From: Eukaryota sp. TZLM1-RC
Taxonomy: Eukaryota; Protista; Metamonada: BaSk clade
DNA length: 64,000 nucleotides
NCBI GenBank assembly: GCA_040285825.1
Contig: JAUPSS010000011.1
Location: 693,658 to 757,657 of the forward strand
Direction: 5' to 3'
A model generated the notes under the pieces. It was not told the origin of the DNA and did no database searches. It saw only the letters and a program-made list of their open reading frames with translations. Positions within the stretch are counted from its first letter, which is position 1; the number at the start of each line of letters is the position of its first letter. A program made the position numbers and the translations under genes. Of this stretch, positions 15,614-55,211 are shown piece by piece.

Positions 15614-18600
15614 CACCAATGACTAATCAAATGACCATAGCACGGACTTTAACACCACAATTGTTATATTAATTGTCCCAAAATGGACTTTAAAGATTTG
15701 ACCAATGATTGTAATAAACAACCATTGGTCAATATACGAAACTAGGAACTTCATATGAGCCTCAGTAAATCGTATCAAAAACGATACTCTTACACTTACA
15801 GCAATTGTTTTATTAGTTTACAACATTCAATTGTATACTTTTTGATTTTTTACTTTTTTTACAATTTAATGTTTAAAAATTAATACACTCAATTAATTCA
15901 AATATATACAAAATCAATTGAAAATGTAATCATGAGTTTGTTCTGATCAAGTAACACATAGCCAACATTACTCACACACAATTTCACACAAAGTTTGATC
16001 ACAAGTTGATCACATCTAGTACATAAGGACTACATGCAACTCATCTAATCACACCAATGACCATTCAACCAATCAAACCAATGACTACTCAAATGACCAT
16101 AGCACGGACTTTAACACCACAATTGTTATAATAATTGTCCCAAAATGGACTCTAAAGATTTGACCAATGATTGTAATAAACAACCATTGGTCAATATACG
16201 AAACTAGGAACTTCATATGAGCCTCAGTAAATCGTATCAAAACGATACTCTTACACTTACAGCAATTGTTTTATTAGTTTACAACATTCAATTGTATACT
16301 TTTTGATTTTTTACTATTTTTACAATTTAATGTTTAAAAATTAATAACTCAATTAATTCAAATATATACAAAATCAATTGAAAATGTAATCATGAGTTTG
16401 TACTGATCAAGTAACACATAGCCAACATTACTCACACACAATTTCACACAAAGTTTGATCACAAGTTGATCACATCTAGTACATAAAGACTACATGCAAC
16501 TCATCTAATCACACCAATGACCATTCAACCAATCAAACCAATGACTACTCAAATGACCATAGCACGGACTTTAACACCACAATTGTTATAATAATTGTCC
16601 CAAAATGGACTTTAAAGATTTGACCAATGATTGAAATAAACAACCATTGGTCAATATACGAAACTAGGAACTTCATATGAGCCTCAGTAAATCGTATCAA
16701 AAACGATACTCTTACACTTACAGCAATTGTTTTATTAGTTTGCAACATTCAATTGTATACTTTTTGATTTTTTACTATTTTTACAATTTAATGTTTAAAA
16801 ATTAATAACTCAATTAATTCAAATATATACAAAATCAATTGAAAATGTAATCATGAGTTTGTACTGATCAAGTAACACATAGCCAACATTACTCACACAC
16901 AATTTCACACAAAGTTTGATCACAAGTTGATCACATCTAGTACATAAGGACTACATGCAACTCACTAATCACACCAATGACCATTCAACCAATCAAACCA
17001 ATGACTACTCAAATGACCATAGCACGGACTTTAACACCACAATTGTTATAATAATTGTCCCAAAATGGACTTTAAAGATTTGACCAATGATTGTAATAAA
17101 CAACCATTGGTCAATATACGAAACTAGGAACTTCATATGAGCCTCAGTAAATCGTATCAAAAACGATACTCTTACACTTACAGCAATTGTTTTATTAGTT
17201 TGCAACATTCAATTGTATACTTTTTGATTTTTTACTATTTTTACAATTTAATGTTTAAAAATTAATACACTCAATTAATTCAAATATATACAAAATCAAT
17301 TGAAAATGTAATCATGAGTTTGTACTGATCAAGTAACACATAGCCAACATTACTCACACACAATTTCACACAAAGTTTGATCACAAGTTGATCACATCTA
17401 GTACATAAAGACTACATGCAACTCATCTAATCACACCAATGACCATTCAACCAATCAAACCAATGACTACTCAAATGACCATAGCACGGACTTTAACACC
17501 ACAATTGTTATATTAATTGTCCCAAAATGGACTTTAAAGATTTGACCAATGATTGTAATAAACAACCATTGGTCAATATACGAAACTAGGAACTTCATAT
17601 GAGCCTCAGTAAATCGTATCAAAAACGATACTCTTACACTTACAGCAATTGTTTTATTAGTTTGCAACATTCAATTGTATACTTTTTGATTTTTTACTAT
17701 TTTTACAATTTAATGTTTAAAAATTAATAACTCAATTAATTCAAATATATACAAAATCAATTGAAAATGTAATCATGAGTTTGTACTGATCAAGTAACAC
17801 ATAGCCAACATTACTCACACACAATTTCACACAAAGTTTGATCACAAGTTGATCACATCTAGTACATAAGGACTACATGCAACTCACCAAATCACACCAA
17901 TGACCATTCAACCAATCAAACCAATGACTACTCAAATGACCATAGCACGGACTTTAACACCACAATTGTTATAATAATTGTCCCAAAATGGACTTTAAAG
18001 ATTTGACCAATGATTGTAATAAACAACCATTGGTCAATATACGAAACTAGGAACTTCATATGAGCCTCAGTAAATCGTATCAAAACGATACTCTTACACT
18101 TACAGCAATTGTTTTATTAGTTTGCAACATTCAATTGTATACTTTTTGATTTTTTACTATTTTTACAATTTAATGTTTAAAAATTAATAACTCAATTAAT
18201 TCAAATATATACAAAATCAATTGAAAATGTAATCATGAGTTTGTACTGATCAAGTAACACATAGCCAACATTACTCACACACAATTTCACACAAAGTTTG
18301 ATCACAAGTTGATCACATCTAGTACATAAAGACTACATGCAACTCATCTAATCACACCAATGACCATTCAACCAATCAAACCAATGACTACTCAAATGAC
18401 CATAGCACGGACTTTAACACCACAATTGTTATAATAATTGTCCCAAAATGGACTTTAAAGATTTGACCAATGATTGTAATAAACAACCATTGGTCAATAT
18501 ACGAAACTAGGAACTTCATATGAGCCTCAGTAAATCGTATCAAAAACGATACTCTTACACTTACAGCAATTGTTTTATTAGTTTGCAACATTCAATTGTA

Positions 18601-21600
18601 TACTTTTGATTTTTTACTATTTTTACAATTTAATGTTTAAAAATTAATAACTCAATTAATTCAAATATATACAAAATCAATTTGAAAATGTAATCATGAG
18701 TTTGTACTGATCAAGTAACACATAGCCAACATTACTCACACACAATTTCACACAAAGTTTGATCACAAGTTGATCACATCTAGTACATAAAGACTACATG
18801 CAACTCATCTAATCACACCAATGACCATTCAACCAATCAAACCAATGACTACTCAAATGACCATAGCACGGACTTTAACACCACAATTGTTATATTAATT
18901 GTCCCAAAATGGACTTTAAAGATTTGACCAATGATTGAAATAAACAACCATTGGTCAATATACGAAACTAGGAACTTCATATGAGCCTCAGTAAATCGTA
19001 TCAAAAACGATACTCTTACACTTACAGCAATTGTTTTATTAGTTTACAACATTCAATTGTATACTTTTTGATTTTTTACTTTTTTTACAATTTAATGTTT
19101 AAAAATTAATACACTCAATTAATTCAAATATATACAAAATCATTTGAAAATGTAATCATGAGTTTGTACTGATCAAGTACATAGCCAACATTACTAACAC
19201 ACAATTTCACACAAAGTTTGATCACAAGTTGATCACATCTAGTACATAAGGACTACATGCAACTCATCTAATCATACCAATGACCATTCAACCAATCATA
19301 CCAATGACTACTCAAATGACCATAGCACGGACTTTAACACCACAATTGTTATAATAATTGTCCCAAAATGGACTTTAAATATTTGACCAACGATTGTAAT
19401 AAACAACCATTGGTCAATATACGAAACTAGGAACTTCATATGAGCCTCAGTAAATCGTATCAAAAACGATACTCTTACACTTACAGCAATTGTTTTATTA
19501 GTTTGCAACATTCAATTGTATACTTTTTGATTTTTTACTATTTTTACAATTTAATGTTTAAAAATTAATAACTCAATTAATTCAAATATATACAAAATCA
19601 ATTGAAAATGTAATCATGAGTTTGTACTGATCAAGTAACACATAGCCAACATTACTCACACACAATTTCACACAAAGTTTGATCACAAGTTGATCACATC
19701 TAGTACATAAAGACTACATGCAACTCATCTAATCACACCAATGACCATTCAACCAATCAAACCAATGACTACTCAAATGACCATAGCACGGACTTTAACA
19801 CCACAATTGTTATAATAATTGTCCCAAAATGGACTTTAAAGATTTGACCAATGATTGAAATAAACAACCATTGGTCAATATACGAAACTAGGAACTTCAT
19901 ATGAGCCTCAGTAAATCGTATCAAAAACGATACTCTTACACTTACAGCAATGGTTATATTAGTTTGCAACATTCAATTGTATACTTTTTGATTTTTTTAC
20001 TATTTTTACAATTTAATGTTTAAAAATTAATAACTCAATTAATTCAAATATATACAAAATCAATTGAAAATGTAATCATGAGTTTGTACTGATCAAGTAA
20101 CACATAGCCAACATTACTCACACACAATTTCACACAAAGTTTGATCACAAGTTGATCACATCTAGTACATAAAGACTACATGCAACTCATCTAATCACAC
20201 CAATGACCATTCAACCAATCAAACCAATGACTACTCAAATGACCATAGCACGGACTTTAACACCACAATTGTTATAATAATTGTCCCAAAATGGACTTTA
20301 AAGATTTGACCAATGATTGAAATAAACAACCATTGGTCAATATACGAAACTAGGAACTTCATATGAGCCTCAGTAAATCGTATCAAAAAAACGATACTCT
20401 TACACTTACAGCAATGGTTATATTAGTTTGCAACATTCAATTGTATACTTTTTTTGATTTTTTTACTATTTTTACAATTTAATGTTTAAAAAAATTAATA
20501 CACTCAATTAATTCAAATATATACAAAAATCAATTGAAAATGTAATCATGAGTTTGTACTGATCAAGTAACACATAGCCAACATTACTCACACACAATTT
20601 CACACAAAGTTTGATCACAAGTTGATCACATCTAGTACATAAAGACTACATGCAACTCATCTAATCACACCCAATGACCATTCAACCAATCATACCAATG
20701 ACTAATCAAATGACCATAGCACGGACTTTAACACCACAATTGTTATAATAATTGTCCCAAAATGGACTTTTAAAGATTTGACCAATGATTGAAATAAACA
20801 ACCATTGGTCAATATACGAAACTAGGAACTTCATATGAGCCTCAGTAAATCGTATCAAAAAAACGATACTCTTACACTTACAGCAATGGTTATATTAGTT
20901 TACAACATTCAATTGTATACTTTTTTTGATTTTTTTACTATTTTTACAATTTAATGTTTAAAAAAATTAATAACCCAATTAATTCAAATATATACAAAAT
21001 CAATTGAAAATGTAATCATGAGTTTGTACTGATCAAGTAACACATAGCCAACATTACCTCACACACAATTTCACACAAAGTTTGATCACAAGTTGATCAC
21101 ATCTAGTACATAAAGACTACATGCAACTCATCTTAATCACACCAATGACCATTCAACCAATCAAACCCAATGACTACTCAAATGACCATAGCACGGACTT
21201 TAACACCACAATTGTTATATTAATTGTCCCAAAATGGACTTTTAAAGATTTGACCAATGATTGTAATAAACAACCATTGGTCAATATACGAAACTAGGAA
21301 CTTCATATGAGCCTCAGTAAATCGTATCAAAAAAACGATACTCTTACACTTACAGCAATGGTTATATTAGTTTACAACATTCAATTGTATACTTTTTGAT
21401 TTTTTTACTATTTTTACAATTTAATGTTTAAAAAAATTAATACACTCAATTAATTCAAATATATACAAAATCAATTGAAAAATGTAATCATGAGTTTGTA
21501 CTGATCAAGTAACACATAGCCAACATTACTCACACACAATTTCACACAAAGTTTGATCACAAGTTGATCACATCTAGTACATAAAGACTACATGCAACTC

Positions 21601-24600
21601 ATCTAATCACACCAATGACCATTCAACCAATCAAACCAATGACTACTCAAATGACCATAGCACGGACTTTAACACCACAATTGTTATATTAATTGTCCCA
21701 AAATGGACTTTAAAGATTTGACCAATGATTGTAATAAACAACCATTGGTCAATATACGAAACTAGGAACTTCATATGAGCTCTCAGTAAATCGTATCAAA
21801 AAAACGATACTCTTACACTTACAGCAATGGTTTATATTAGTTTGCAACATTCAATTGTATACTTTTTTTGATTTTTTTACTATTTTTACAATTTAATGTT
21901 TAAAAAAATTAATACACTCAATTAATTCAAATATATACAAAATCAATTGAAAATGTAATCATGAGTTTGTACTGATCAAGTAACACATAGCCAACATTAC
22001 TCACACACACAATTTCACACAAAGTTTGATCACAAGTTGATCACATCTAGTACATAAAGACTACATGCAACTCATCTAATCACACCAATGACCATTCAAC
22101 CAATCAAACCAATGACTACTCAAATGACCATAGCACGGACTTTAACACCACAATTGTTATATTAATTGTCCCAAAATGGACTTTTAAAGATTTGACCAAT
22201 GATTGTAATAAACAACCATTGGTCAATATACGAAACTAGGAACTTCATATGAGCTCTCAGTAAATCGTATCAAAAAAACGATACTCTTACACTTACAGCA
22301 ATGGTTTATATTAGTTTGCAACATTCAATTGTATACTTTTGATTTTTTTACTATTTTTACAATTTAATGTTTAAAAAAATTAATAACTCAATTAATTCAA
22401 ATATATACAAAATCAATTGAAAATGTAATCATGAGTTTGTACTGATCAAGTAACACATAGCCAACATTACTCACACACAATTTCACACAAAGTTTGATCA
22501 CAAGTTGATCACATCTAGTACATAAAGACTACATGCAACTCATCTAATCACACCAATGACCATTCAACCAATCAAACCAATGACTACTCAAATGACCATA
22601 GCACGGACTTTAACACCACAATTGTTATATTAATTGTCCCAAAATGGACTTTTAAAGATTTGACCAATGATTGTAATAAACAACCATTGGTCAATATACG
22701 AAACTAGGAACTTCATATGAGCTCTCAGTAAATCGTATCAAAAAAACGATACTCTTACACTTACAGCAATGGTTATATTAGTTTACAACATTCAATTGTA
22801 TACTTTTGATTTTTTTACTATTTTTACAATTTAATGTTTAAAAAAATTAATAACTCAATTAATTCAAATATATACAAAATCAATTGAAAATGTAATCATG
22901 AGTTTGTACTGATCAAGTAACACATAGCCAACATTACTCACACACAATTTCACACAAAGTTTGATCACAAGTTGATCACATCTAGTACATAAAGACTACA
23001 TGCAACTCATCTAATCACACCAATGACCATTCAACCAATCAAACCAATGACTACTCAAATGACCATAGCACGGACTTTAACACCACAATTGTTATATTAA
23101 TTGTCCCAAAATGGACTTTAAAGATTTGACCAATGATTGTAATAAACAACCATTGGTCAATATACGAAACTAGGAACTTCATATGAGCCTCAGTAAATCG
23201 TATCAAAAACGATACTCTTACACTTACAGCAATGGTTATATTAGTTTGCAACATTCAATTGTATTTTTTTTGATTTTTTACTATTTTTACAATTTAATGT
23301 TTAAAAATTAATAACTCAATTAATTCAAATATATACAAAATCAATTGAAAATGTAATCATGAGTTTGTTCTGATCAAGTAACACATAGCCAACATTACTC
23401 ACACACAATTTCACACAAAGTTGATCACAAGTTGGTCACATCTAGTACATAAGGACTACATGCAACTCATCTAATCACACCAATGACCATTCAACCAATC
23501 ATACCAATGACTACTCAAATGACCATAGCACAGACTTTAACACCACAATTGTTATAATAATTGTCCCAAAATGGACTTTAAAGATTTGACCAATGATTGA
23601 AATAAACAACCATTGGTCAATATACGAAACTAGGAACTTCATATGAGCTCTCAGTAAATCGTATCAAAACGATACTCTTACACTTACAGCAATGGTTATA
23701 TTAGTTTGCAACATTCAATTGTATACTTTTTGATTTTTTACTATTTTTACAATTTAATGTTTAAAAATTAATAACTCAATTAATTCAAATATATACAAAA
23801 TCAATTGAAAATGTAATCATGAGTTTGTACTGATCAAGTAACACATAGCCAACATTACTCACACACAATTTCACACAAAGTTTGATCACAAGTTGATCAC
23901 ATCTAGTACATAAAGACTACATGCAACTCATCTAATCACACCAATGACCATTCAACCAATCAAACCAATGACTACTCAAATGACCATAGCACGGACTTTA
24001 ACACCACAATTGTTATAATAATTGTCCCAAAATGGACTTTAAAGATTTGACCAATGATTGAAATAAACAACCATTGGTCAATATACGAAACTAGGAACTT
24101 CATATGAGCCTCAGTAAATCGTATCAAAAACGATACTCTTACACTTACAGCAATGGTTATATTAGTTTGCAACATTCAATTGTATACTTTTTGATTTTTT
24201 ACTATTTTTACAATTTAATGTTTAAAAATTAATAACTCAATTAATTCAAATATATACAAAATCAATTGAAAATGTAATCATGAGTTTGTACTGATCAAGT
24301 AACACATAGCCAACATTACTCACACACAATTTCACACAAAGTTTGATCACAAGTTGATCACATCTAGTACATAAAGACTACATGCAACTCATCTAATCAC
24401 ACCAATGACCATTCAACCAATCAAACCAATGACTACTCAAATGACCATAGCACGGACTTTAACACCACAATTGTTATAATAATTGTCCCAAAATGGACTT
24501 TTAAAGATTTGACCAATGATTGAAATAATCAACCATTGGTCAATATACGAAACTAGGAACTTCATATGAGCTCTCAGTAAATCGTATCAAAACGATACTC

Positions 24601-27600
24601 TTACACTGACAGCAATGGTTTTATTAGTTTACAACATTCAATTGTATACTTTTTGATTTTTTTACTATTTTTACAATTTAATGTTTAAAAATTAATAACT
24701 CAATTAATTCAAATATATACAAAATCAATTGAAAATGTAATCATGAGTTTGTACTGATCAAGTAACACATAGCCAACATTACTCACACACAATTTCACAC
24801 AAAGTTTGATCACAAGTTGATCACATCTAGTACATAAAGACTACATGCAACTCATCTAATCACACCAATGACCATTCAACCAATCAAACCAATGACTACT
24901 CAAATGACCATAGCACGGACTTTAACACCACAATTGTTATAATAATTGTCCCAAAATGGACTTTAAAGATTTGACCAATGATTGTAATAAACAACCATTG
25001 GTCAATATACGAAACTAGGAACTTCATATGAGCCTCAGTAAATCGTATCAAAAACGATACTCTTACACTTACAGCAATGGTTATATTAGTTTGCAACATT
25101 CAATTGTATACTTTTTGATTTTTTACTTTTTTTACAATTTAATGTTTAAAAATTAATACACTCAATTAATTCAAATATATACAAAATCATTTGAAAATGT
25201 AATCATGAGTTTGTACTGATCAAGTAACACATAGCCAACATTACTAACACACAATTTCACACAAAGTTTGATCACAAGTTGATCACATCTAGTACATAAA
25301 GACTACATGCAACTCATCTAATCATACCAATGACCATTCAACCAATCATACCAATGACTACTCAAATGACTATAGCACGGACTTTAACACCACAATTGTT
25401 ATAATAATTGTCCCAAAATGGACTTTAAAGATTTGACCAATGATTGTAATAAACAACCATTGGTCAATATACGAAACTAGGAACTTCATATGAGCCTCAG
25501 TAAATCGTATCAAAAACGATACTCTTACACTTACAGCAATTGTTTTATTAGTTTACAACATTCAATTGTATACTTTTTGATTTTTTACTTTTTTACAATT
25601 TAATGTTTAAAAATTAATACACTCAATTAATTCAAATATATACAAAATCATTTGAAAATGTAATCATGAGTTTGTACTGATCAAGTAACACATAGCCAAC
25701 ATTACTAACACACAATTTCACACAAAGTTTGATCACAAGTTGATCACATCTAGTACATAAAGACTACATGCAACTCATCTAATCATACCAATGACCATTC
25801 AACCAATCATACCAATGACTACTCAAATGACCATAGCACGGACTTTAACACCACAATTGTTATAATAATTGTCCCAAAATGGACTTTAAAGATTTGACCA
25901 ATGATTGTAATAAACAACCATTGGTCAATATACGAAACTAGGAACTTCATATGAGCCTAAATGGTATCAAAAACGATACTCATACACTTACAGCAATGGA
26001 TTTATTAGCTTACAACATTCAATTGTATACTTTTTGTTTTTTTACTGTTTTTACAATTTAAAAATTAATACACTCAATTAATTCAAATATATACAAAATC
26101 AATTGAAAATGTAATCATGAGTTTGTACTGATCAAGTAACACATAGCCAACATTACTCACACACAATTTCACACAAAGTTTGATCACAAGTTGATCACAT
26201 CTAGTACATAAGGACTACATGCAACTCACCTAATCATACCAATGACCATTCAACCAATCATACCAATGACTACTCAAATGACCATAGCACGGACTTTAAC
26301 ACCACAATTGTTATATTAATTGTCCCAAATGGACCTTAAGATTTGACCAATGATTGTAATAAACAACCATTGGTCAATATACGAAACTAGGAACTTCATA
26401 TGAGCCTCAGTAAATCGTATCAAAAACGATACTCTTACACTTACAGCAATTGTTTTATTAGTTTACAACATTCAATTGTATACTTTTTGATTTTTTTACT
26501 TTTTTTACAATTTAATGTTTAAAAATTAATACACTCAATTAATTCAAATATATACAAAATCATTTGAAAATGTAATCATGAGTTTGTACTGATCAAGTAA
26601 CACATAGCCAACATTACTAACACACAATTTCACACAAAGTTTGATCACAAGTTGATCACATCTAGTACATAAAGACTACATGCAACTCATCTAATCATAC
26701 CAATGACCATTCAACCAATCATACCAATGACTACTCAAATGACCATAGCACGGACTTTAACACCACAATTGTTATAATAATTGTCCCAAAATGGACTTTA
26801 AATATTTGACCAACGATTGTAATAAACAACCATTGGTCAATATACGAAACTAGGAACTTCATATGAGCCTCAGTAAATCGTATCAAAACCGATACTTTTA
26901 CACTTACAGCAATGGTTTTATTAGTTTGCAACATTCAATTGTATACTTTTTGATTTTTTACTATTTTTACAATTTAATGTTTAAAAATTAATAAACTCAA
27001 TTAATTCAAATATATACAAAATCATTTGAAAATGTAATCATGAGTTTGTACTGATCAAGTAACACATAGCCAACATTACTAACACACAATTTCACACAAA
27101 GTTTGATCACAAGTTGATCACATCTAGTACATAAAGACTACATGCAACTCATCTAATCATACCAATGACCATTCAACCAATCATACCAATGACTAATCAA
27201 ATGACCATAGCACGGACTTTAACACCACAATTGTTATATTAATTGTCCCAAAATGGACTTTAAAGATTTGACCAATGATTGTAATAAACAACCATTGGTC
27301 AATATACGAAACTAGGAACTTCATATGAGCCTCAGTAAATCGTATCAAAAACGATACTCTTACACTTACAGCAATTGTTTTATTAGTTTACAACATTCAA
27401 TTGTATACTTTTTGATTTTTTACTTTTTTTACAATTTAATGTTTAAAAATTAATACACTCAATTAATTCAAATATATACAAAATCATTTGAAAATGTAAT
27501 CATGAGTTTGTACTGATCAAGTAACACATAGCCAACATTACTAACACACAATTTCACACAAAGTTTGATCACAAGTTGATCACATCTAGTACATAAAGAC

Positions 27601-28231
27601 TACATGCAACTCATCTAATCATACCAATGACCATTCAACCAATCATACCAATGACTACTCAAATGACCATAGCACGGACTTTAACACCACAATTGTTATA
27701 ATAATTGTCCCAAAATGGACTTTAAATATTTGACCAACGATTGTAATAAACAACCATTGGTCAATATACGAAACTAGGAACTTCATATGAGCCTCAGTAA
27801 ATCGTATCAAAACCGATACTTTTACACTTACAGCAATGGTTTTATTAGTTTGCAACATTCAATTGTATACTTTTTGATTTTTTACTATTTTTACAATTTA
27901 ATGTTTAAAAATTAATAAACTCAATTAATTCAAATATATACAAAATCAATTGAAAATCATGAGTTTGTACTGATCAAGTTACGCATAGCCAACATTACTC
28001 ACACACAATTTCACACAAAGTTTGATCACAAGTTGATCACATCTAGTACATAAAGACTACATGCAACTCATCTAATCATACCAATGACCATTCAACCAAT
28101 CATACCAATGACTAATCAAATGACCATAGCACGGACTTTAACACCACAATTGTTATATTAATTGTCCCAAAATGGACTTTAAAGATTTGACCAATGATTG
28201 TAATAAACAACCATTGGTCAATATACGAAAC
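15614..28231 (+). repeat. ~461 bp tandem satellite, about 27 copies
   Basis: Marker ORF recurs at 16545, 17005, 17467 etc.; each unit contains the inverted repeat TTGACCAATG..CATTGGTCAA. Confidence 0.97.
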
Positions 28232-28540
28232 GATGGATTAAGTTCACGACCAATGCGATACGGTAAGATTCCAAACAAATGTGTTGCTTCTTGAACTATT
28301 CGAAAAGCACTTATTAAGAAAACATCGTCCATATATGTTAAAATTTCAATTTCTGGAAATTGTGACTTAAAATAAAAACAATTGGATGCAGGAAAAGACA
28401 AAATAGGAATGGACCCATTAGATCAACCCTGCTTTACACCCAAACATTAGGAAATAGAATTAGTTTTCATAACTAAACGTGAGTGGGCAGAATATAACAT
28501 AGGAGCGACTTCTGCAAAAACAGGGGGATGTTGAAGGACT
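28232..28540 (-). pseudogene. Degenerate RT fragment (family D), left arm of the inverted duplication
   Basis: GVKQG and TYMDD motifs with stops and frameshifts; boundaries approximate. Confidence 0.75.
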
Positions 28541-28903
28541 TCAGGTGCGTCAGCTTCTAGTTCAAGTGCTTCTAGTTTGGTTTTTTGTCCATTTCTAGTT
28601 TGATGCTATTTTTGAAAACTGGAGAACTTTCATCTAGAATTACAACGTTCAATATCAAATTTTTTTTATTTTTGGCTATTGATTGTTCAGATCTTATCTT
28701 TGAAAACCAAGAAGAGAAAATGGGGACATCTTGGTGTCTACTTTCCCCATATGCATTGTCCTTTGCACCAATTTGTGTCAGTTTCGTGTGATGCTGAGAA
28801 TGTACTTCTTATTCGAAACTACTACTGTTGATGTTTTATCTGTGGGCTCTTATCATTTATATTTCTCTGGTTTTATTGCAAAAGCCGACAGAATGTATAA
28901 ATC

Positions 28904-29491
28904 TTATGATATTAAAATGTCAGGAGCGTCCTCACTTCCTGTATATATTGGTGGTGCAGCAGGACTCCAATCAGTAGAACTTGTGCTGTGGGAAGGCAAA
29001 ACGAGAGGTTCTTCATAAGCTAGTTGGATTACGAGATACGTCTTTTGCTTTCCAACATCCAACTTAAAAAAGAGCCCTCGATCCTGTACACTGGGATTAA
29101 TGGTTGTTCTGATCCATTCCAAGGTATCTACTGCTGCTTGTTTGGATGCCTTATTTTGCAAGATAATGCTCAAAACAAAAAAAACAACGCCCAAGACAGC
29201 AAAAAAACATATCAAAGTTATAAAAATCCACTCGTCCTGCACGTCGATCATCGAATAGTTACCGTCAAAATACAAACCGACAGACATGGCTGCAACAAAA
29301 GAAAGAAGAGTGCATAAAAAAGAACACACAGCCTTCCACGATGTCTTACGTAGGCGCTTGGCAAGTTCCAGATCAAGATCATCCCATTCGCGCAAAGAGT
29401 AGACGTCTTCAATCATCGAAGGGCGTTTCTCATCAATAACACGTATGTTTCCTTTTGGTTTGAGCTCAAATTCACACTGACGGAAAGTCAT
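28904..29491 (-). CDS. 195-aa membrane protein (two hydrophobic helices, C-terminal PPIY motif); weak resemblance to the Erf4/Golga7 family
   Basis: Intact ATG-TAA ORF; hydrophobic stretches AVCSFLCTLLSFVAAMSVGLYF and WIFITLICFFAVLGVVFFVLSIIL; intact in both arms. Confidence 0.75.
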   Translation of the reverse strand: MTFRQCEFELKPKGNIRVIDEKRPSMIEDVYSLREWDDLDLELAKRLRKTSWKAVCSFLCTLLSFVAAMSVGLYFDGNYSMIDVQDEWIFITLICFFAVLGVVFFVLSIILQNKASKQAAVDTLEWIRTTINPSVQDRGLFFKLDVGKQKTYLVIQLAYEEPLVLPSHSTSSTDWSPAAPPIYTGSEDAPDILIS

Positions 29492-29578
29492 GAGTCTAGG
29501 AATAAGTTTTGAGAAGTATGAATTTCACTATTTTTTAAGCTGAATTTGAAACTCATTTTCCCCCAAAACTACCCCAAA

Positions 29579-29836
29579 ATGGAACCTCTCAACATCTCTC
29601 TAAACTTCAATGAACTAACAATGACTTTGGCTTTCCTTGCAGACAAACTATTGGTCCACAACTTGACACCCTCTAAAGTTACCAAGAAGTGGCGAGCACT
29701 CTGACTTCTCTTGCAAACAAACTTGTGCTCCACAATTGCTAAGACTTTGCACATCACAAAGGACGCTGAAATAACCAATTTGATCAGATCGTTGTTATTA
29801 TTAGCTCCAATTCCTACCGTTTTGGACACAATTTGA
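29579..29836 (+). pseudogene. Divergently oriented gene remnant (MEPLNISLNF...), in-frame TGA at 29702
   Basis: ATG 87 bp from the 195-aa gene ATG, preceded by TCATTTTCCCCC; a leucine-rich frame continues past the TGA to 29836. Confidence 0.4.
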
Positions 29837-30291
29837 AATTAATTTCTGATTCACTTTGTTCTTTTGGTAATTTTTCTGCATCTTTAGTAATTAACTGTTT
29901 CGATGTAGGAGAGGCAGGTTTTGAGGACCTGGAGCTTTAGTTTTGTATTTGACAATTTTTCATTTAATAGTTGATAAATAAATAAATTTTTCCAAAAAAA
30001 TAGAAAACAACACAATGTTTGTTCGTTAACAGCAATTACTAAGTTGTCAGCACAGTGAATGTGGCATCTACTAGAACAAAGAAACCAATAGTGCAGTTAC
30101 CATCAATTACCATAAGTAATTACTGGATTATTAGACTTACGTAATCTTAAGCGTTGATTCAAAATTCAAAATATTTTAGTTCAATTCTTGTAAAAAAATC
30201 ACTTTAGTTTTATAAATTGTTTTTTAATATATCAATTTTATTAAAAACCTATAAATCAACGTGTAAATAATCCATCTCTCCTACGGCATCA

Positions 30292-31058
30292 TTATTGCTG
30301 AATTTGATATTGAAAAACACATCCAATTTTTTATTTTAAAAATTTATTATTCTGGTAAATTCACTCATATTTTAAGATCAACTCCTCCTTCAGTCCTCCT
30401 TTGTCTCTTGATTTTTGTAGATCTTTCAACAAACTTCGGGTCAAATTTATTTCTTCATTTGTGGAAGTAAATGAATCTTTAATTCGAAGTCATGTTTTTT
30501 GTTCTGCTGAATCAATGGGAATTGGTTTAAATATAATCTTCGATTTTATGTAAAGCAGCTTTTTTAGGAGGTGGAAAAAATTTTGTTTTTTGAATTTTTC
30601 CAAAGGTTTCCTTATGATGTTCATATGATCCATAGTGAATCTAATTTTTATTTGAATCAACTTCAAATTGAATTAGATAATTTGCCTAGTGATATCTGGA
30701 TTCAGTGTTTTCCTCAAAATATTCAAGAAATTCCCACCCGATCTCTTCCAAATTTACGTTTTTGCTTGAAAAAGCTTCAGTACCATCTGGTTAAATTATA
30801 TGAGGGCTTGGATCATGAAGTAAGACTTGGCTTGGCCAAAACTAAAAATCCCGCTTGCGTTAATTTTTTAAAGGATATTCGTGATAGCTCAGCTGCTGCT
30901 TTAGTAACTCAAATTCCCTCAGTTTATGGTCTTTTGTTAAAAAACAATGAATGGCTTTTAAACATGCGTTTTCGTTGTTTTCTGTGGCCAAACAATTTGC
31001 CGAATCATTTAACTTGTAAATGTGGTAAGCCTCTTTTGTTTACTCATCTCTTGAACTG
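30292..31058 (+). pseudogene. Retrotransposon internal fragment, family E (sister of family A), degenerate
   Basis: FDIEKHIQFFILK, THILRS, CFPQNIQEIP, MRFRCFLWPNNLPNHLTCKC..HLLN align by eye with family A (42050-42800). Confidence 0.85.
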
Positions 31059-32272
31059 GTTTCGTAGGGTTTCGGCCAGCCAAAGTCTAGTATCACGTTA
31101 CCTTCTTTCTTGCAGTATTCGCGTGCTTTTTTAGGGGCCTTCATTGGATCAGTATGGCAACCTCTTAATATTTCCCAGTTATTCATTTCAGCCAAAGTGA
31201 TTCCTTCACCCAATAGTTTAAAACATCCTTGTAGGTGAGGAGTTCCGTTATCTCCTACTTCTTTTCCTATTGTGGCGCATTCGCAACTTAAGTTTAGTTC
31301 GGCGTGGAGTCTTCGGCAGTCTTCTTCTGTGTGCAGTCTTTCTTCTGCTTCTTTTTGTTTTTTTTCTTGATATTCTTGTTCTTTTAATTCTGTTTGAATT
31401 GCTGATCCTGCTTTAGACATGTGTTGCATTTTTTTTCTCAAGTCTTTTGGTAACTGTGCTTGTCCAATTGCACTTTGTTGTTGCATTTCTTGTTCTTCCT
31501 CTGCAGGTTCCATTGCCCGTACATCTCCTTCCAATTGTGGCAGTACACTTGCTGACAAGTGTTTCTTAATTATTTCATCAGTTCCTAATTCATAAATTTC
31601 ATGTTGTAATTTTCGCTGAATTTCCTTTTCAATGAACCATAATGGAACTTCATCTTCCATATCCATAATGCATGCACACCACATGCATTCCAAGCTTTCT
31701 TCGTATGCATATTTATCTTCTTTTAAATTCAGAAATCCCATTTCACTTCCAAGTGTTCCTTCATTATTTTCACCTTGTTGTTCTTCATCAGCTATTGGTG
31801 GTACTCTTAAGTAAATGTGTCCAGGTCTAGCATTGGTGCTTATAGCATCCCATAAATCCTTAATATCTTCACTTAAATCGTTAAAATTTACATAAAGATA
31901 ATGTTTTTTTCTGTACCTAACTTCATTATTTGATAGTTTGACGGGTCTCTTAGGGCAGCATTTGTCACACATTACTCTTGGACCTACGAATGTTTCGTTT
32001 TTGTTCATCCATACCCTTGCATCACCGCGGTGGTCTAAGTTATCTCTTTCTTCCAGTGCAGCCAAGAGAACGTTTTTGCCCTCGTTTGAAGTTGAGGCCC
32101 AGAAGTTTTTTCCAGATCTTCTATTAGTTTTTCTTGAAAAACTTGAGGATAATCGTTTTAGTCCAGCTTTCATGACTTTGTCTTTGCGTCTTGCTATATG
32201 TGGAGGGATGGCCGACTGGGCAGCCCGAGGAAGTTTTAATGACAATTTCTTCAGTTTTTTGAGCGGAGACAT
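31040..32272 (-). CDS. 410-aa ORF: basic N-terminus, two CxxC pairs, coiled coil, C-terminal CRESS/circovirus-type HUH Rep endonuclease fragment (motifs II and III)
   Basis: IGKEVGDNGTPHLQG (motif II) and AREYCKKEG (motif III) at about 31095-31275; motif I and a C-terminal SF3 helicase are absent; the last codons read into antisense family E. Confidence 0.8.
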   Translation of the reverse strand: MSPLKKLKKLSLKLPRAAQSAIPPHIARRKDKVMKAGLKRLSSSFSRKTNRRSGKNFWASTSNEGKNVLLAALEERDNLDHRGDARVWMNKNETFVGPRVMCDKCCPKRPVKLSNNEVRYRKKHYLYVNFNDLSEDIKDLWDAISTNARPGHIYLRVPPIADEEQQGENNEGTLGSEMGFLNLKEDKYAYEESLECMWCACIMDMEDEVPLWFIEKEIQRKLQHEIYELGTDEIIKKHLSASVLPQLEGDVRAMEPAEEEQEMQQQSAIGQAQLPKDLRKKMQHMSKAGSAIQTELKEQEYQEKKQKEAEERLHTEEDCRRLHAELNLSCECATIGKEVGDNGTPHLQGCFKLLGEGITLAEMNNWEILRGCHTDPMKAPKKAREYCKKEGNVILDFGWPKPYETSSRDE

Positions 32273-32490
32273 GCGGTCAAAATTATGAAACTATTTTTTT
32301 GAAAAAAATATTGCAAGGCATTAGCCTTGCTAGGTTTATGTTTTTAGTTGTTCATGAATGTGTCAAGAGGGATATTTGCAGCTGTGAGATTGGGGGCGGA
32401 CGTAGTCTAGTGGTGTTCAGTTGATGCTTCTTATAGATTTCAAAGGTTCACTGCTTGCCTCGTTCGTTCAATCATTTTCTGTAGTTTTTC

Positions 32491-32586
32491 GGTTAGGGTT
32501 AGGGTTTTGGATAGGGTTAGGTTAGGGTTATGGTTTTGGATAGGGTTAGGTTAGGGTTAGGGTGAGCGAAGCGATCCGGGTTAGGG
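32491..32586 (+). repeat. Telomere-like TTAGGG-rich tract (29-bp unit x ~2.5 plus one GGGTTAGGG)
   Basis: GGTTAGGGTTAGGGTTTTGGATAGGGTTA at 32491, a one-base variant at 32520, a partial copy at 32549. Confidence 0.9.
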
Positions 32587-32590
32587 AGTT

Positions 32591-33705
32591 GTCCTAAATT
32601 TGGTGGAGTTGGTTTTTCAAAAGCAGAGTATTTATGCAAAAGTGCTTTTATTGGTGGTATGAAAAATTTTCTTTTTGAATGGAAACTTCGTTTTGATCAT
32701 ATTCCTTTAAATGAATCACATCCTTTATTAATTTCTCTTGAAAAAATGGTGCAAGAACTACCTGTTGATATTTGGAATAGGAGTTTTCCTTCAAGTTTGC
32801 CTGCTGTGCCTTCGAGATCTTTCACCAACCTTCATCTTGCTGTTGTGAAATTACAGAAGTCTGTTCTTATTGGTTTTGAAGACCTGGATTTTTCTAAACG
32901 ACTTAGTGTGACTAAGATTAATAATCCCGTCTTTGCTGCCTTTTTATCAGACACTCAGAACTGTACTAGTTTAATATCTCAGCAACCAAGGCCATTTGGT
33001 CTTCACTTAACAAATGAAGCTTGGAAACAAAACATGCGGTTGAGATTAGGGATGTATCCAAGTGGTCTTTTGGACAATTCTTATTGTATTTGTAACAAAA
33101 AAACCTACTGCCAATTTTCGTCATATTGTGAGCTGTAAGAAATTTCTCCAATATAGGTCAGTTCTTCATAATGCCGTTCGTGATGTGACATATGAGATGT
33201 TCAAGTGTTACAATTTTAGTTGCAAAGTAGAACCTTTGTTGAAGCATTATAGTGATGATAATCTTTTTAATTCACGTCGAGGTGATTTAATTGCTCCTTT
33301 TGTGGATTCCTCTCAAGTTGTTGTTGATTTCACTACAGTTGATCCCTTTGCTTTTGTTTATCGCGATGATGTTTTACTTAGTACTAATGGTCATTTAAAC
33401 AAGGCTGAAGATCGTAAGAGAGATAAATATACTGAGATATTAAATGATTTAAATAAGAACCTTTATTCGAAGTTTTCGTTTGTTCCTTTTGCCTTTTCGA
33501 TTTTTGGCAACATTGGTCAATCCGCCTTGAATTTCATCAATGATTTTGGTAATTTATGTCGTTCAAGTGGGCAGAGAATTTATGGAAAAATCGTATCATT
33601 TTCGCTTTGTACAGAAGTGTTCCCAAGTACTTGAGTTTAATGATGTCTAAACTTTATAAGGATTCATCAAGAGTTGGCGTGGAGAATTTAGTTTCTTATC
33701 TGTTT
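32591..33705 (+). mobile_element. Family C retrotransposon, 3' fragment (Zn knuckle + RLE)
   Basis: Near identical to 60563-61687; HNAVRD, EP, RGD..D motifs; one homopolymer frameshift near 33100. Confidence 0.92.
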
Positions 33706-35168
33706 AAAATGTTGTAAACCGTGTTGTAAAAGAGACAAAGGGCCAATAAGTGATAAATCATCTGCATAAGCACATATATGAATGTCAGGAAAATCCGACT
33801 TAAATTTTACCAAAACTGATCGCAGTGCTAAGCAAAAGAAAAATGGACCCAATGGATCCCCTTGTTTGACGCCTTTTGACGAAACAATATTCTCAGAATG
33901 AAAAATTAAGTTAGAGGGTGATCCATACATCAATTTAAAATACGGCAAAAGTGGAAAATAGTGTAGTTCAAGTTCTTGCAAAATACTGGAGCGAAGAAGG
34001 GAGTTGAAAGCATTTTTAAAATCAATGTTCAATAAATAAATTTCGCCTTTTTGATTGGAAAGTAAATCTGTACACAACGCAGCACATGTTGTGCCATCAG
34101 GAATTCCGATAGCAAACTGATAAGGACGAAAAAAATTAATTGCGGATGACTTAACTCTTTGAAAAGAAATAATTGCTAATAATCTCGTTATGGACTCACC
34201 AACAGCAATAGGTCTGACACCATCTCCAGGCTTATTTAAAGCAACTAAACGAGATGCCATTAACGCTTGTGGTAACTTGAAACGTCCCATGATGACACTA
34301 TTAAAAAAGAAAACTAAATCATCCACGATTTCTGGACATATGTTGACTGCGGACTTCAAATGATCATAACTAAGTCCAGAAGGCCCAGCAGAACGACCAG
34401 ACGGAAGTCCTTTAATAGCTACACTAACTTCATCACAAGTGATAGGATTAGCAGTGAAGAAATCACGTTCATTATCAGAGACAATGTGATTTATGGTGAA
34501 GTCTTCAGGTAGATGAAGAGAATTTAAAGAATCCAATGTTTCATCATTGAAGGCAGCAGGAGAAGAACCAGCCAATAATTTAAGTGCTGAAGAGTATTGT
34601 GAACGAAGAATCAAAGACTCAAAGCGTTTTTTGACATTTTTAGATTGTGGAACCGACTTCTTATATTTAGATTTCTTGTGTGAAGACATAGCCTTAGAAA
34701 GAAAAAATTTCCAAAAAATCGAAGGATTCCAAATGCCCTTTCGAAGAGAGAAGGTTAAAGATCAAATAACTGTTGCAAGAGAAGACGAATAAGCAGGAGA
34801 AACGAATTGAGGGATTGCAAATGGAGGTCTACAAGGATCAATTGGCGTGCAAGAATCACAAACCAAAAGAGGTCGACCCAAAACATTGAATCCAGAAACT
34901 GGAGAACAACAGAACAAACATGATTTTGTATTACTACTGACTCAAGACGAATGAAGTATATGCGGAGGCTCAATAGACTCAATAGGTGAAGATAATGATG
35001 CCAAAACAGCTTCATCTGACAAAACTTTTCGCCGAGGACATGTTGTTTTTGTGTGACCAACAGTTTTGCACAAAGAACAGGTAGTCACAGAATTCTTAGG
35101 GCGTCCTCTAGAAGGTTTTGAAGTAACTGACTTCGGAGGCATAGATAAGCATGGAGGGAGAAAAAAAA
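33706..35168 (-). mobile_element. Family C retrotransposon, 5' fragment incl. apparent 5' end (AT-hook, CCHC knuckle, C4 finger, RT to YADD)
   Basis: ATG at 35142: MPPKSVTSKPSRGRPK..CSLCKTVGHTKTTC; RPIAVGE, DFKNAFNS, GVKQGDPLGP, AYADD; near identical to 58890-60140. Confidence 0.92.
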
Positions 35169-35313
35169 TGTTTTAAACTATTGGGTGAAGGAATCACTTT
35201 GGCTGGAATGAATAACTGGGAAATATTAAGAGGTTGCCATACTGAACCAATGAAGGCCCCTAAAAAAGCACGCGAATACTGCAAGAAAGAAGGTAACGTG
35301 ATACTAGACTTTG
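35168..35313 (+). pseudogene. Second, shorter copy of the HUH Rep fragment (motif III only)
   Basis: CFKLLGEGITL...AREYCKKEGNVILDF, the reverse complement of ~31080-31226. Confidence 0.85.
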
Positions 35314-36012
35314 ACCACAGAAAACAACGAAAACGCATGTTTAGAAGCTATTCATTGTTTTTTAACAAAAGTCCATAAACAAGAGGGAATTTGAGTTACT
35401 AAAGCAGCAGCTGAGCTATCACGAATATCCTTTAAATAATTACCGCAAGCGGGATTTTTAGTTTTGGCCAAGCCAAGTCTTACTTCATGATCCAAGCCCT
35501 CATATAATTTAACCAGATGGTACTGAAGCTTTTTCAAGCAAAAACGTAAAATTGGAAGAGATCGGGTGGGAATTTCTTGAATATTTTGAGGAAAACACTG
35601 AATCCAGATATCACTAGGCAAATTATCTAATTCAATTTGAAGTTGATTCAAATAAAAATTAGATTCACTATGGATCATATGAACATCATAAGGAAACCTT
35701 TGGAAAAATTCAAAAAACAAAATTTTTTCCACCTCCTAAAAAAGCTGCTTTACATAAAATCGAAGATTATATTTAAACCAATTCCCATTGATTCAGCAGA
35801 ACAAAAAACATGACTTCGAATTAAAGATTCATTTACTTCCACAAATGAAGAAATAAATTTGACCCGAAGTTTGTTGAAAGATCTACAAAAATCAAGAGAC
35901 AAAGGAGGACTGAAGGAGGAGTTGATCTTAAAATATGAGTGAATTTACCAGAATAATAAATTTTTAAAATAAAAAATTGGATGTGTTTTTCAATATCAAA
36001 TTCAGCAATAAT
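35310..36012 (-). pseudogene. Family E retrotransposon fragment, right-arm copy
   Basis: Reverse complement of ~30292-30990. Confidence 0.85.
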
Positions 36013-36466
36013 GATGCCGTAGGAGAGATGGATTATTTACATGTTGATTTATAGGTTTTTAATAAAATTGATATATTAAAAAACAATTTATAAAACTAAA
36101 GTGATTTTTTTACAAGAATTGAACTAAAATATTTTGAATTTTGAATCAACGCTTAAGATTACGTAACTCTAATAATCCAGTAATTACTTATGGTAATTGA
36201 TGGTAACTGCACTATTGGTTTCTTTGTTCTAGTAGATGCCACATTCACTGTGCTGACAACTTAGTAATTGCTGTCAACGAACAAACATTGTGTTGTTTTC
36301 TATTTTTTTGGAAAAATTTATTTATTTATCAACTATTAAATGAAAAATTGTCAAATACAAAACTAAAGCTCCAGGTCCTCAAAACCTGCCTCTCCTACAT
36401 CGAAACAGTTAATTACTAAAGATGCAGAAAAATTACCAAAAGAACAAAGTGAATCAGAAATTAATT

Positions 36467-36724
36467 TCAAATTGTGTCCAAAACGGTAGGAATTGGAGCT
36501 AATAATAACAACGATCTGATCAAATTGGTTATTTCAGCGTCCTTTGTGATGTGCAAAGTCTTAGCAATTGTGGAGCACAAGTTTGTTTACAAGAGAAGTC
36601 AGAGTGCTCGCCACTTCTTGGTAACTTTAGAGGGTGTCAAGTTGTGGACCAATAGTTTGTCTGCAAGGAAAGCCAAAGTCATTGTTAGTTCATTGAAGTT
36701 TAGAGAGATGTTGAGAGGTTCCAT
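36467..36724 (-). pseudogene. Right-arm copy of the divergent gene remnant, with an extra stop
   Basis: Mirror of 29579-29836; same TGA plus a CAA>TAA change. Confidence 0.35.
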
Positions 36725-36811
36725 TTTGGGGTAGTTTTGGGGGAAAATGAGTTTCAAATTCAGCTTAAAAAATAGTGAAATTCATACTTCTCAAAACTTA
36801 TTCCTAGACTC

Positions 36812-37399
36812 ATGACTTTCCGTCAGTGTGAATTTGAGCTCAAACCAAAAGGAAACATACGTGTTATTGATGAGAAACGCCCTTCGATGATTGAAGACGT
36901 CTACTCTTTGCGCGAATGGGATGATCTTGATCTGGAACTTGCCAAGCGCCTACGTAAGACATCGTGGAAGGCTGTGTGTTCTTTTTTATGCACTGTTCTC
37001 TCTTTTGTTGCAGCCATGTCTGTCGGTTTGTATTTTGACGGTAACTATTCGATGATCGACGTGCAGGACGAGTGGATTTTTATAACTTTGATATGTTTTT
37101 TTGCTGTCTTGTGCGTTGTTTTTTTTGTTTTGAGCATTGTCTTGCAAAATAAGGCATCCAAACAAGCAGCAGTAGATACCTTGGAATGGATCAGAACAAC
37201 CATTAATCCCAGTGTACAGGATCGAGGGCTCTTTTTTAAGTTGGATGTTGGAAAGCAAAAGACGTATCTCGTAATCCAACTAGCTTATGAAGAACCTCTC
37301 GTTTTGCCTTCCCACAGCACAAGTTCTACTGATTGGAGTCCTGCTGCACCACCAATATATACAGGAAGTGAGGACGCTCCTGACATTTTAATATCATAA
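36812..37399 (+). CDS. 195-aa membrane protein, second intact copy (3 aa differences)
   Basis: ORF track; L>V, G>C and I>V relative to 28904-29491. Confidence 0.75.
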   Translation: MTFRQCEFELKPKGNIRVIDEKRPSMIEDVYSLREWDDLDLELAKRLRKTSWKAVCSFLCTVLSFVAAMSVGLYFDGNYSMIDVQDEWIFITLICFFAVLCVVFFVLSIVLQNKASKQAAVDTLEWIRTTINPSVQDRGLFFKLDVGKQKTYLVIQLAYEEPLVLPSHSTSSTDWSPAAPPIYTGSEDAPDILIS

Positions 37400-37762
37400 G
37401 ATTTATACATTCTGTCGGCTTTTGCAATAAAACCAGAGAAATATAAATGATAAGAGCCCACAGATAAAACATCAACAGTAGTAGTTTCGAATAAGAAGTA
37501 CATTCTCAGCATCACACGAAACTGACACAAATTGGTGCAAAGGACAATGCATATGGGGAAAGTAGACACCAAGATGTCCCCATTTTCTCTTCTTGGTTTT
37601 CAAAGATAAGATCTGAACAATCAATAGCCAAAAATAAAAAAATTTTGATATTGAACGTTGTAATTCTAGATGAAAGTTCTCCAGTTTTCAAAAATAGCAT
37701 CAAACTAGAAATGGACAAAAAACCAAACTAGAAGCACTTGAACTAGAAGCTGACGCACCTGA

Positions 37763-38071
37763 AGTCCTTCAACATCCCCCTGTTTTTGCAGAAGTCGCTC
37801 CTATGTTATATTCTGCCCACTCACGTTTAGTTATGAAAACTAATTCTATTTCCTAATGTTTGGGTGTAAAGCAGGGTTGATCTAATGGGTCCATTCCTAT
37901 TTTGTCTTTTCCTGCATCCAATTTTTTTTATTTTAAGTCACAATTTCCAGAAATTGAAATTTTAACATATATGGACGATGTTTTCTTAATAAGTGCTTTT
38001 CGAATAGTTCAAGAAGCAACAAATTTGTTTGGAATCTTACCGTATCGCATTGGTCGTGAACTTAATCCATC
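37763..38071 (+). pseudogene. Degenerate RT fragment (family D), right-arm copy
   Basis: GVKQG and TYMDD; mirror of 28232-28540. Confidence 0.75.
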
Positions 38072-38620
38072 GTTTCGTATATTGACCAATGGTTGTTTAT
38101 TACAATCATTGGTCAAATCTTTAAAGTCCATTTTGGGACAATTAATATAACAATTGTGGTGTTAAAGTCCGTGCTATGGTCATTTGATTAGTCATTGGTA
38201 TGATTGGTTGAATGGTCATTGGTATGATTAGATGAGTTGCATGTAGTCCTTATGTACTAGATGTGATCAACTTGTGATCAAACTTTGTGTGAAATTGTGT
38301 GTGAGTAATGTTGGCTATGTGTTACTTGATCAGTACAAACTCATGATTACATTTTCAATTGATTTTGTATATATTTGAATTAATTGAGTTTATTAATTTT
38401 TAAATTGTAAAAACAGTAAAAAAACAAAAAGTATACAATTGAATGTTGTAAGCTAATAAATCCATTGCTGTAAGTGTATGAGTATCGTTTTTGATACCAT
38501 TTACTTTTATTGAAAATTAAGAAGAAACTACATGAATAGTAAAAATTTACTGAGGCTCATATGAAGTTCCTAGTTTCGTATATTGACCAATGGTTGTTTA
38601 TTACAATCATTGGTCAAATC
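38072..38620 (-). repeat. ~461 bp satellite, ~1.1 copies, inverted
   Basis: Reverse complement of the satellite unit, with a 46-bp extra segment near 38500. Confidence 0.92.
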
Positions 38621-55193: not shown

Positions 55194-55211
55194 TGAATCC
55201 TCAAAATCTGA

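What the first reader, a model, noticed from the sequence alone, without database searches (positions are those of the whole stretch)
31040..32272. Endogenous CRESS-virus-like HUH Rep nuclease fused to an unknown 315-aa protein
Seen: an uninterrupted 410-codon ORF ending in TEEDCRRL..IGKEVGDNGTPHLQG..REYCKKEGN..FG. Known: this matches motifs II (xHxQ) and III (YxxK) of circovirus/nanovirus-type Viral_Rep. Motif I is replaced by a coiled coil, and the C-terminus is cut by family E at ~31058. The N-terminus is K/R-rich, has CDKC and CMWC, and includes a Walker-A-like FWASTSNEGKN (weak). Inference: an endogenised ssDNA virus, a chimera of viral ORFs, or an undescribed Rep-based mobile element. 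It would link a CRESS lineage to this protist host.
Basis: partly seen in the sequence, partly recalled or inferred. Interest (0 to 1): 0.78.

Follow-up and report, generated by a model that had tools for sequence, protein, structure and literature searches.

The report
Broken ssDNA-virus gene fusion in protist
A protist chromosome carries an open gene whose last quarter is a clipped piece of the DNA-nicking replication protein of small circular single-stranded DNA viruses, joined to an unknown protein that likely came from the same virus-like element; it is likely a dead relic, and its main value is that it points to a probable new host group (Skoliomonas-like soda-lake flagellates) for these viruses.

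Summary
Confirmed: window 31040-32272 (-) is a stop-free 410-codon ORF. Residues 314-404 are a CRESS-type HUH nuclease (Pfam Viral_Rep E 8e-5, below cut-off; model matches PCV2 Rep, Z 11.3). Motifs II and III are intact. Motif I and all domains after the nuclease are missing, and the Walker-A idea fails. The best relatives of both halves are annotated Skoliomonas litria proteins on one contig: a 113-aa Rep nuclease with motif I (54% identical) and a 109-aa ORF matching residues 254-313 (57%). Both halves share an A-ending codon bias absent from 11 of 11 other window ORFs. So the ORF is most likely two genes of one virus-like element fused by a deletion, then cut by a junction with a retroelement fragment, in an rDNA-adjacent patchwork of repeats. 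A 146-bp second copy comes from a local inverted duplication. The protein is probably inactive. CRESS relics in protists are a known class; new here are the probable host group and an unknown partner ORF. No whole genome or RNA data were available.

The parts
31040..32272 (-). 410-codon ORF (P0001): ORF-X fused to a clipped CRESS-type Rep nuclease
31334..32272 (-). ORF-X part, codons 1-313: basic N-terminus (1-56), two CxxC pairs, acidic middle, predicted helices; residues 1-253 have no detected relative
31334..31513 (-). codons 254-313, homologous to the first 60 aa of S. litria protein P0009 (57% identity); predicted long helix
31059..31333 (-). Rep HUH nuclease piece, codons 314-405: starts just after motif I; Glu338, motif II at 31229-31237, motif III at 31106-31117
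31040..31058 (-). last five codons and stop, read from the antisense strand of the family E retroelement fragment
30292..31058 (+). internal fragment of a non-LTR retroelement (family E), broken at both ends
32292..32330 (.). two adjacent DNA hairpins 20-58 nt upstream of the ATG (A/T stem; 7-bp GC-rich stem with 4-nt loop); no canonical CRESS nonanucleotide
32471..32590 (+). degenerate TTAGGG-like tract; a contig of run X2 continues differently before 32471, so this marks the outer end of the unique 1.4-kb segment
32591..35167 (.). copy of a second non-LTR retroelement (family D), internally inverted: 3' piece 32591-33705 (+), 5' piece 33706-35167 (-)
35168..35313 (+). second copy of the Rep piece, 146 bp, 144 of 146 identical, motif III only
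27904..38404 (.). inverted duplication with arms 27904-31226 and 35168-38404 (99% identical); the right arm lacks 88 bp at a short microhomology

Best explanation
The ORF joins a clipped CRESS-type Rep nuclease to an unknown protein, and is likely a non-working relic of a small circular ssDNA virus-like element that entered the chromosome of a probable Skoliomonas-like protist. Shown: the Rep piece lacks motif I and everything after the nuclease domain, both junctions are in frame or supply a stop, and both halves share a codon bias foreign to the window. Inferred steps: (1) a CRESS-like element with an unknown gene (ORF-X) upstream of Rep on the same strand was captured into an rDNA-adjacent region rich in satellites and retroelement scraps; (2) a deletion removed the end of ORF-X and the first codons of Rep including motif I, fusing the two in frame; (3) a second junction with a family E fragment removed the rest of Rep; (4) a local inverted duplication copied the last 146 bp. 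If translated, the product is predicted not to nick DNA, because the central strand that carries motif I is missing, and it could not drive rolling-circle replication without a helicase.
For: Rep identity: Pfam Viral_Rep E 8e-5, PCV2 Rep E 5.5e-7, Z 11.3, rmsd 2.4 over 87 residues starting at PCV2 residue 23. Best two non-CRESS-contig hits among 89 are S. litria proteins P0007 (54%, residues 315-401) and P0009 (57%, 254-324), both on a 1.52-Mb contig and 47 locus tags apart. P0007 has motif I and is 55% identical over 95 aa to P0011, a full Rep with a helicase-like C-terminus on a 2339-nt environmental contig. P0001 and P0007 group together, support 82/87. A/(A+T) at fourfold sites: ORF-X 0.67, Rep piece 0.62 (p 0.81 between them), 11 other window ORFs 0.18-0.46 (p 3e-8 and 0.008 against their pool). 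Motif I profile: best score in the protein -9.9 bits against a native median of 29.7, shuffle p 0.44. A fold made without motif-I information places no substitute strand and loses strand 372-376. One contig of run X1 spans the fusion point with 47 and 104 letters on each side and no differences. An open frame needs no selection if the piece is as young as the duplication: chance of no stop 0.46 at 1% divergence. The window holds a eukaryotic rDNA operon.
Against: No capsid-like gene, nonanucleotide origin or helicase was found in the segment, so a virus is inferred from the Rep alone. No relative of ORF-X was found on any of 115 fetched Rep-bearing loci or in viral contigs, so the ORF-X-then-Rep order has not been seen in a real virus. 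P0007 itself ends 12 residues after the nuclease, which fits a helicase-less element as well as a second truncation. The codon comparison rests on only 3 non-retroelement ORFs plus related retroelement copies. Tree support is moderate (94 columns) and deeper placement is unresolved. At 5% divergence an open frame would be unlikely without selection (p 0.02). The host group is inferred from homologues, not from a direct marker comparison.
Confidence: 0.64

Rival explanations
1. The piece derives from a helicase-less Rep mobile element of skoliomonads (Replitron-like or satellite-like) that carries a short stand-alone HUH nuclease like P0007 and an accessory ORF-X, and uses host helicase and the upstream hairpins; this copy is a damaged member.
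For: P0007 is a complete 113-aa nuclease with no helicase in its annotation. P0007 and P0009 lie 47 locus tags apart. Two hairpins sit just upstream of the ATG (0 of 200 shuffles fold as well, region chosen after the fact). No longer skoliomonad Rep appeared.
Against: P0007 is 55% identical to a full-length CRESS Rep, whereas Replitrons are only weakly linked to CRESS Reps and have a conserved 90-aa second domain (PMC10288648), absent here. No terminal repeat longer than 8 nt. One copy plus a duplication scrap in the window. Contig depth about 3 against 7-230 for neighbouring retroelement pieces, though that figure is not a copy number.
Confidence: 0.13
2. ORF-X is a host or host-repeat gene, and a Rep scrap was joined to it by chance, giving a host-virus chimera.
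For: The only relative of ORF-X is an annotated S. litria protein; no viral relative was found; the region is a patchwork of unrelated fragments.
Against: ORF-X has the same A-ending codon bias as the Rep piece and differs from the three non-retroelement ORFs (0.67 against 0.33 pooled, p 1.5e-7). The relatives of both halves are near each other on one S. litria contig.
Confidence: 0.12
3. The fusion has been co-opted by the host as a nuclear DNA-binding protein: a basic N-terminus, a possible zinc site and a coiled coil bring a Rep-derived surface to rDNA or telomere-like repeats.
For: Open frame with intact motifs II and III; the branch to P0001 (0.47) is no longer than that to P0007 (0.44). 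Expressed Rep-like genes in eukaryote genomes are reported (PMC3198968, passages).
Against: No second fused protein; the stop comes from an antisense retroelement scrap; the fold lacks its central strand; neutrality suffices if the piece is young.
Confidence: 0.07
4. The segment is an assembly artefact or a free viral molecule mis-joined into the contig.
For: It lies within a large inverted duplication, a structure that long-read assemblies can create; the short-read contig across the Rep/family E junction has only 27 letters on the E side, under the 31 needed.
Against: The arms differ by 22 mismatches, 2 gaps and an 88-bp deletion; the fusion point is spanned by an identical short-read contig; a related Rep is annotated on another skoliomonad contig.
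Confidence: 0.04

Closest known systems
Endogenous CRESS-DNA viral elements of protists (Naryaviridae/Nenyaviridae in Entamoeba, Vilyaviridae in Giardia, Kirkoviridae in parabasalids; PMC7493932, PMC9615429, passages read)
   Same: Rep-like viral sequence embedded in protist chromosomal DNA, mostly without a capsid gene; used to infer the virus host.
   Different: Probable host is a free-living soda-lake metamonad; only the nuclease minus motif I survives; it is fused in frame to an unknown 313-aa ORF. Membership in any of these named families was not tested (no named references in the tree).
Rep of Circoviridae/Nanoviridae type (Pfam PF02407; PCV2 Rep)
   Same: Glu before motif II, HLQ motif II, YxxK motif III, same predicted fold over 87 residues.
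   Different: No motif I, no oligomerisation domain, no SF3 helicase; about 25-30% identity to PCV2 Rep.
Replitrons (PMC10288648; parts 1-2 of 7 and passages read)
   Same: Eukaryotic chromosomal Y1 HUQ Rep without helicase, with an unalignable N-terminal extension.
   Different: Replitrons keep motif I, have a GYxxK motif III, a 90-aa second domain, terminal direct repeats and many copies, and are distant from CRESS Reps. This Rep nests among CRESS Reps and lacks those features.
Skoliomonas litria hypothetical proteins P9112_009940 (P0007) and P9112_009987 (P0009)
   Same: 54% and 57% identical to the two halves around the fusion point.
   Different: Annotated as separate short ORFs; P0007 keeps motif I; neither is described as viral in the papers checked.

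Membership tests
CRESS-type Rep (PF02407) | Motif II HUH/HUQ with upstream Glu | tested here: met
   E338, H346-L-Q348 align with invariant columns
CRESS-type Rep (PF02407) | Motif III YxxK | tested here: met
   Y386-C-K-K389
CRESS-type Rep (PF02407) | Motif I on the first strand | tested here: not met
   Profile from 81 of 93 relatives: best -9.9 bits, shuffle p 0.44; no substitute strand in the unbiased model
CRESS-type Rep (PF02407) | HUH nuclease fold | tested here: met
   Z 11.3, rmsd 2.4, 87 aligned to PCV2 Rep, starting after its first strand
CRESS-type Rep (PF02407) | Pfam gathering score of 26 bits | tested here: not met
   23.3 bits, profile positions 24-82 of 82; P0007 passes with 57.7
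CRESS-type Rep (PF02407) | Oligomerisation domain and SF3 helicase after the nuclease | tested here: not met
   ORF ends at a retroelement junction; no helicase-region hit in the window from 94 proteins, best stray E 0.35
Cressdnaviricota genome | Capsid gene | tested here: inconclusive
   ORF-X starts basic but is predicted helical and has no family hit; residues 1-210 are modelled with low confidence
Cressdnaviricota genome | Stem-loop origin with nonanucleotide | tested here: inconclusive
   Hairpins at 32292-32330, but no exact nonanucleotide in 28-38.5 kb and no one-mismatch match in the loop
Cressdnaviricota genome | Circular ssDNA form | not testable with these tools
   Only assembled contigs of one sample were available
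Endogenous viral element | Embedded in host chromosomal DNA | tested here: inconclusive
   Lies on a 1.2-Mb contig with rDNA and host repeats; the contig across the left junction has 27 letters on the host side, under the bar of 31
Replitron | Conserved 90-aa second domain after Rep | tested here: not met
   Absent in P0001; P0007 ends 12 residues after the nuclease
Replitron | Short terminal direct repeats | tested here: inconclusive
   Longest shared word at the two ends is 8 nt, but the left end is a later rearrangement junction
Replitron | Multi-copy dispersed family | not testable with these tools
   No genome held; one copy and a duplication scrap in the window
P-loop NTPase | Walker A motif in the N-terminal part | tested here: not met
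   No [AG]x4GK[ST] match

The most novel reading that the evidence does not exclude
Skoliomonads host an undescribed family of small Rep elements that have dropped the helicase: a stand-alone 113-aa CRESS-type nuclease plus an unrelated helical, cysteine-bearing partner gene on the same strand and a double-hairpin end. It would be a second, recent route from CRESS virus to eukaryotic transposon, separate from Replitrons and Helitrons, and this ORF would be a deletion derivative.
Probability: 0.13. Interest if true: 0.72.

Novelty: new member of a known kind. Interest (0 to 1): 0.38.

Why it matters
Most environmental CRESS viruses have no known host, and chromosomal relics are the accepted way to assign one. 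The metamonad hosts in the papers read here (Giardia, parabasalids) are gut dwellers; this relic and its S. litria relative would add a free-living lineage near the root of Fornicata and tie an unclassified environmental Rep (P0011) to it. ORF-X would be an unknown gene of that virus lineage. The fusion itself is probably an accident with no function.

Tried and rejected
Walker A in FWASTSNEGKN: no pattern match. Residues 57-63 as a displaced motif I: MAFFT put motif I there and the first fold then drew a strand at 57-62, but the profile score is -15.6 bits and the strand vanished when the alignment held no motif I, so it was alignment-driven. Motif I in another frame upstream: none in six frames of 31040-32600. 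Accelerated decay of the Rep piece: a long branch in the quick 192-row tree (0.96) disappeared in the careful 42-row tree (0.47); the sister pairing with P0011/P0045 also did not hold. Relatives of residues 1-253: none in representatives, Atlas features, Pfam beyond a weak MCM_N E 0.03, PHROGs, NCBIfam, phages, viral contigs or 115 loci; plasmids gave no match for the whole ORF. Close free viruses: best environmental Reps are 35-53% identical. The hairpin has no exact match in viral contigs and no Rfam match of weight. Sequencing runs: no RNA holder listed; most of ORF-X is uncovered in X1-X3, but so is the neighbouring membrane-protein gene, so the blank says nothing. Whole genome not held. 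Exact look-up of the two membrane-protein ORFs found nothing. Earlier scan notes by place and sequence: none.

Full report
Observation. Window 31040-32272 on the minus strand is one open frame of 410 codons. It is a real coding sequence: 0 of 5000 base shuffles of codons 1-313 stayed open that long. Residues 332-390 hit Pfam Viral_Rep (E 8e-5 for the last 96 aa, 23.3 bits, under the cut-off of 26, profile positions 24-82). The same piece hits porcine circovirus 2 Rep in the PDB at E 5.5e-7. A predicted model aligns to PCV2 Rep with Z 11.3, rmsd 2.4 over residues 313-401, beginning at PCV2 residue 23; Foldseek agrees. Glu338, motif II (HLQ) and motif III (YCKK) match invariant columns.

What is missing. 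A motif I profile was built from 81 of 93 fetched Reps (12 were missed by the pattern). Native windows score a median 29.7 bits; the best window in residues 1-340 scores -9.9 (shuffle p 0.44) and the expected position scores -35 to -48. No other frame upstream holds it. I tested whether FWASTSNEG could stand in. The first fold drew a strand there only because the aligner had placed motif I on it. With 93 locus-derived Rep rows cut to start after motif I, residues 40-66 fell below pLDDT 50 and strand 372-376 was lost. There is no Walker A, and none of 94 proteins gave a helicase-region hit in the window. Motif I is described as positioning the metal-binding residues or contacting DNA (PMC10288648; PMC7826260, passages), so loss of activity is inferred, not shown.

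Relatives. Among 1.84 billion representatives, 89 proteins besides the query pass E 0.001; none has its best stretch in residues 1-253. The top hit P0007 (113 aa, 54% over 315-401) and the third hit P0009 (109 aa, 57% over 254-324) are both annotated in Eukaryota sp. TZLM1-RC, on a 1.52-Mb contig, 47 locus tags and accessions apart. TZLM1-RC is the type strain of Skoliomonas litria (PMC11603281, passages). With about 10,000 or more genes, that closeness has a rough chance of 1% (my estimate from the tag numbers). The P0009 match is not a composition effect (score 182, best of 1000 shuffles 77). P0007 has motif I and no helicase, and is 55% identical over 95 aa to P0011, a 311-aa Rep with a weak helicase hit on a 2339-nt environmental contig. 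In a 42-row tree P0001 and P0007 are sisters at 82/87 with equal branch lengths (41 proteins chosen from the hits); the 192-row quick tree gave 92. Deeper placement is unresolved and no named families were included. The P0009 match ends and the P0007 match begins at codons 313/314, exactly after motif I.

One source for both halves. At fourfold-degenerate sites A/(A+T) is 0.67 in codons 1-313 and 0.62 in the Rep piece (p 0.81), against 0.18-0.46 in 11 of 11 other window ORFs (pooled 0.34; p 3e-8 and 0.008). Eight of those ORFs are retroelement pieces and only three are not, so host-wide usage is unknown. Still, this favours ORF-X and Rep coming from one foreign element over a host gene fused to a viral scrap. 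ORF-X starts with a very basic 56 residues, as CRESS capsids do (recalled), but it is acidic and predicted helical further on and has no family match; I do not call it a capsid. Two hairpins lie 20-58 nt upstream of the ATG (z -3.9 and -4.8, region chosen after seeing them; 3 of 300 shuffles for the GC stem) without a canonical nonanucleotide.

Context. The window holds a eukaryotic rDNA operon at 1-3532, a 27-copy 461-bp satellite and pieces of three non-LTR retroelement families. The unique segment is 31059-32470. On the left it meets an internal family E fragment head to head inside codon 405; contigs of intact E go on differently at 31058, and E supplies the last five codons and the stop. 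On the right it meets a TTAGGG-like tract found in another context in run X2, then an internally inverted family D copy. A 3.3-kb inverted duplication copied the last 146 bp of the Rep piece to 35168-35313. One X1 contig spans the fusion point with no differences (47 and 104 letters each side); another crosses the E junction with 27 letters on the E side, under the bar of 31. X1-X3 are one sample and may be the source of the assembly, so this is not independent support. At the 1% divergence of the arms, an unselected frame stays open with probability 0.46; at 5%, 0.02.

Mechanism. Most likely a CRESS-like element with ORF-X ahead of Rep was captured into this repeat-rich region, then fused by one deletion and cut by another. 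The product, if made, would lack the central strand and the helicase and so is predicted inactive. Capture route, gene order and inactivity are inferred. Rivals: a helicase-less Rep mobile element (0.13), a host-gene chimera (0.12), a co-opted gene (0.07), an artefact (0.04).

Known and new. CRESS relics in protists are well described: Entamoeba and Giardia (PMC7493932, passages), parabasalids and Blastocystis (PMC9615429, passages), many eukaryotes (PMC3198968, passages). Replitrons differ in keeping motif I, a second domain and terminal repeats (PMC10288648, parts 1-2 and passages). I found no report of CRESS elements in skoliomonads or barthelonids: 'virus' and 'viral' occur 0 times in the genome preprint's main text (10.1101/2023.05.03.539051, term search and one section), 'virus' 0 times in the species description, Barthelona with CRESS gave 0 papers, and listings showed none (titles and abstract starts only). 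Supplements were not read, and those of the preprint are closed, so an annotation there cannot be excluded. PMC11296320 (passages) added nothing. The host group is inferred from homologues only. Verdict: a real but ordinary kind of viral fossil, new member of a known kind, interest 0.38.

Noticed in passing
L087:944-7287 and L102:1089-7880 (contigs of 27 kb and 18 kb); also L086, L083: A full CRESS-type Rep with helicase sits in contigs far larger than usual CRESS genomes, beside a shared 290-300 aa ORF, a shared repeat-led ORF and a polymerase- or primase-like ORF (label by eye); only about 36-41% identical to P0007.
   Followed up: no
L105:45-893 and 1018-1677: Two different Rep genes in tandem on one 1678-nt contig, with divergent nuclease halves and near-identical helicase halves.
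   Followed up: no
window 1-3532 and 57213-57486: Eukaryotic rDNA operon on the minus strand and a separate 274-bp SSU rRNA fragment among the repeats.
   Followed up: no
window 15615-28231, 57524-58893, 61724-63921; 4934-14243: 461-bp satellite arrays (27, 3 and 5 copies) and a 450-bp repeat family; no Rfam match at gathering score.
   Followed up: partly
window 32591-35167: Family D retroelement copy with its two halves facing each other; a contig of X2 joins 32591 to 33706 on opposite strands with about 420 letters between, showing the intact order.
   Followed up: partly
window 28904-29524 and 36779-37399: Duplicated 206-aa ORF with two hydrophobic stretches and no Pfam family above cut-off.
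   Followed up: partly
window 53717-55271: Two overlapping minus-strand ORFs, the first with hydrophobic segments and a P-loop-like motif, probably one frameshifted membrane ATPase gene.
   Followed up: no
P0019 (ENA, 870-kb contig): A 152-aa Rep nuclease on a very long contig, possibly another chromosomal CRESS relic.
   Followed up: no
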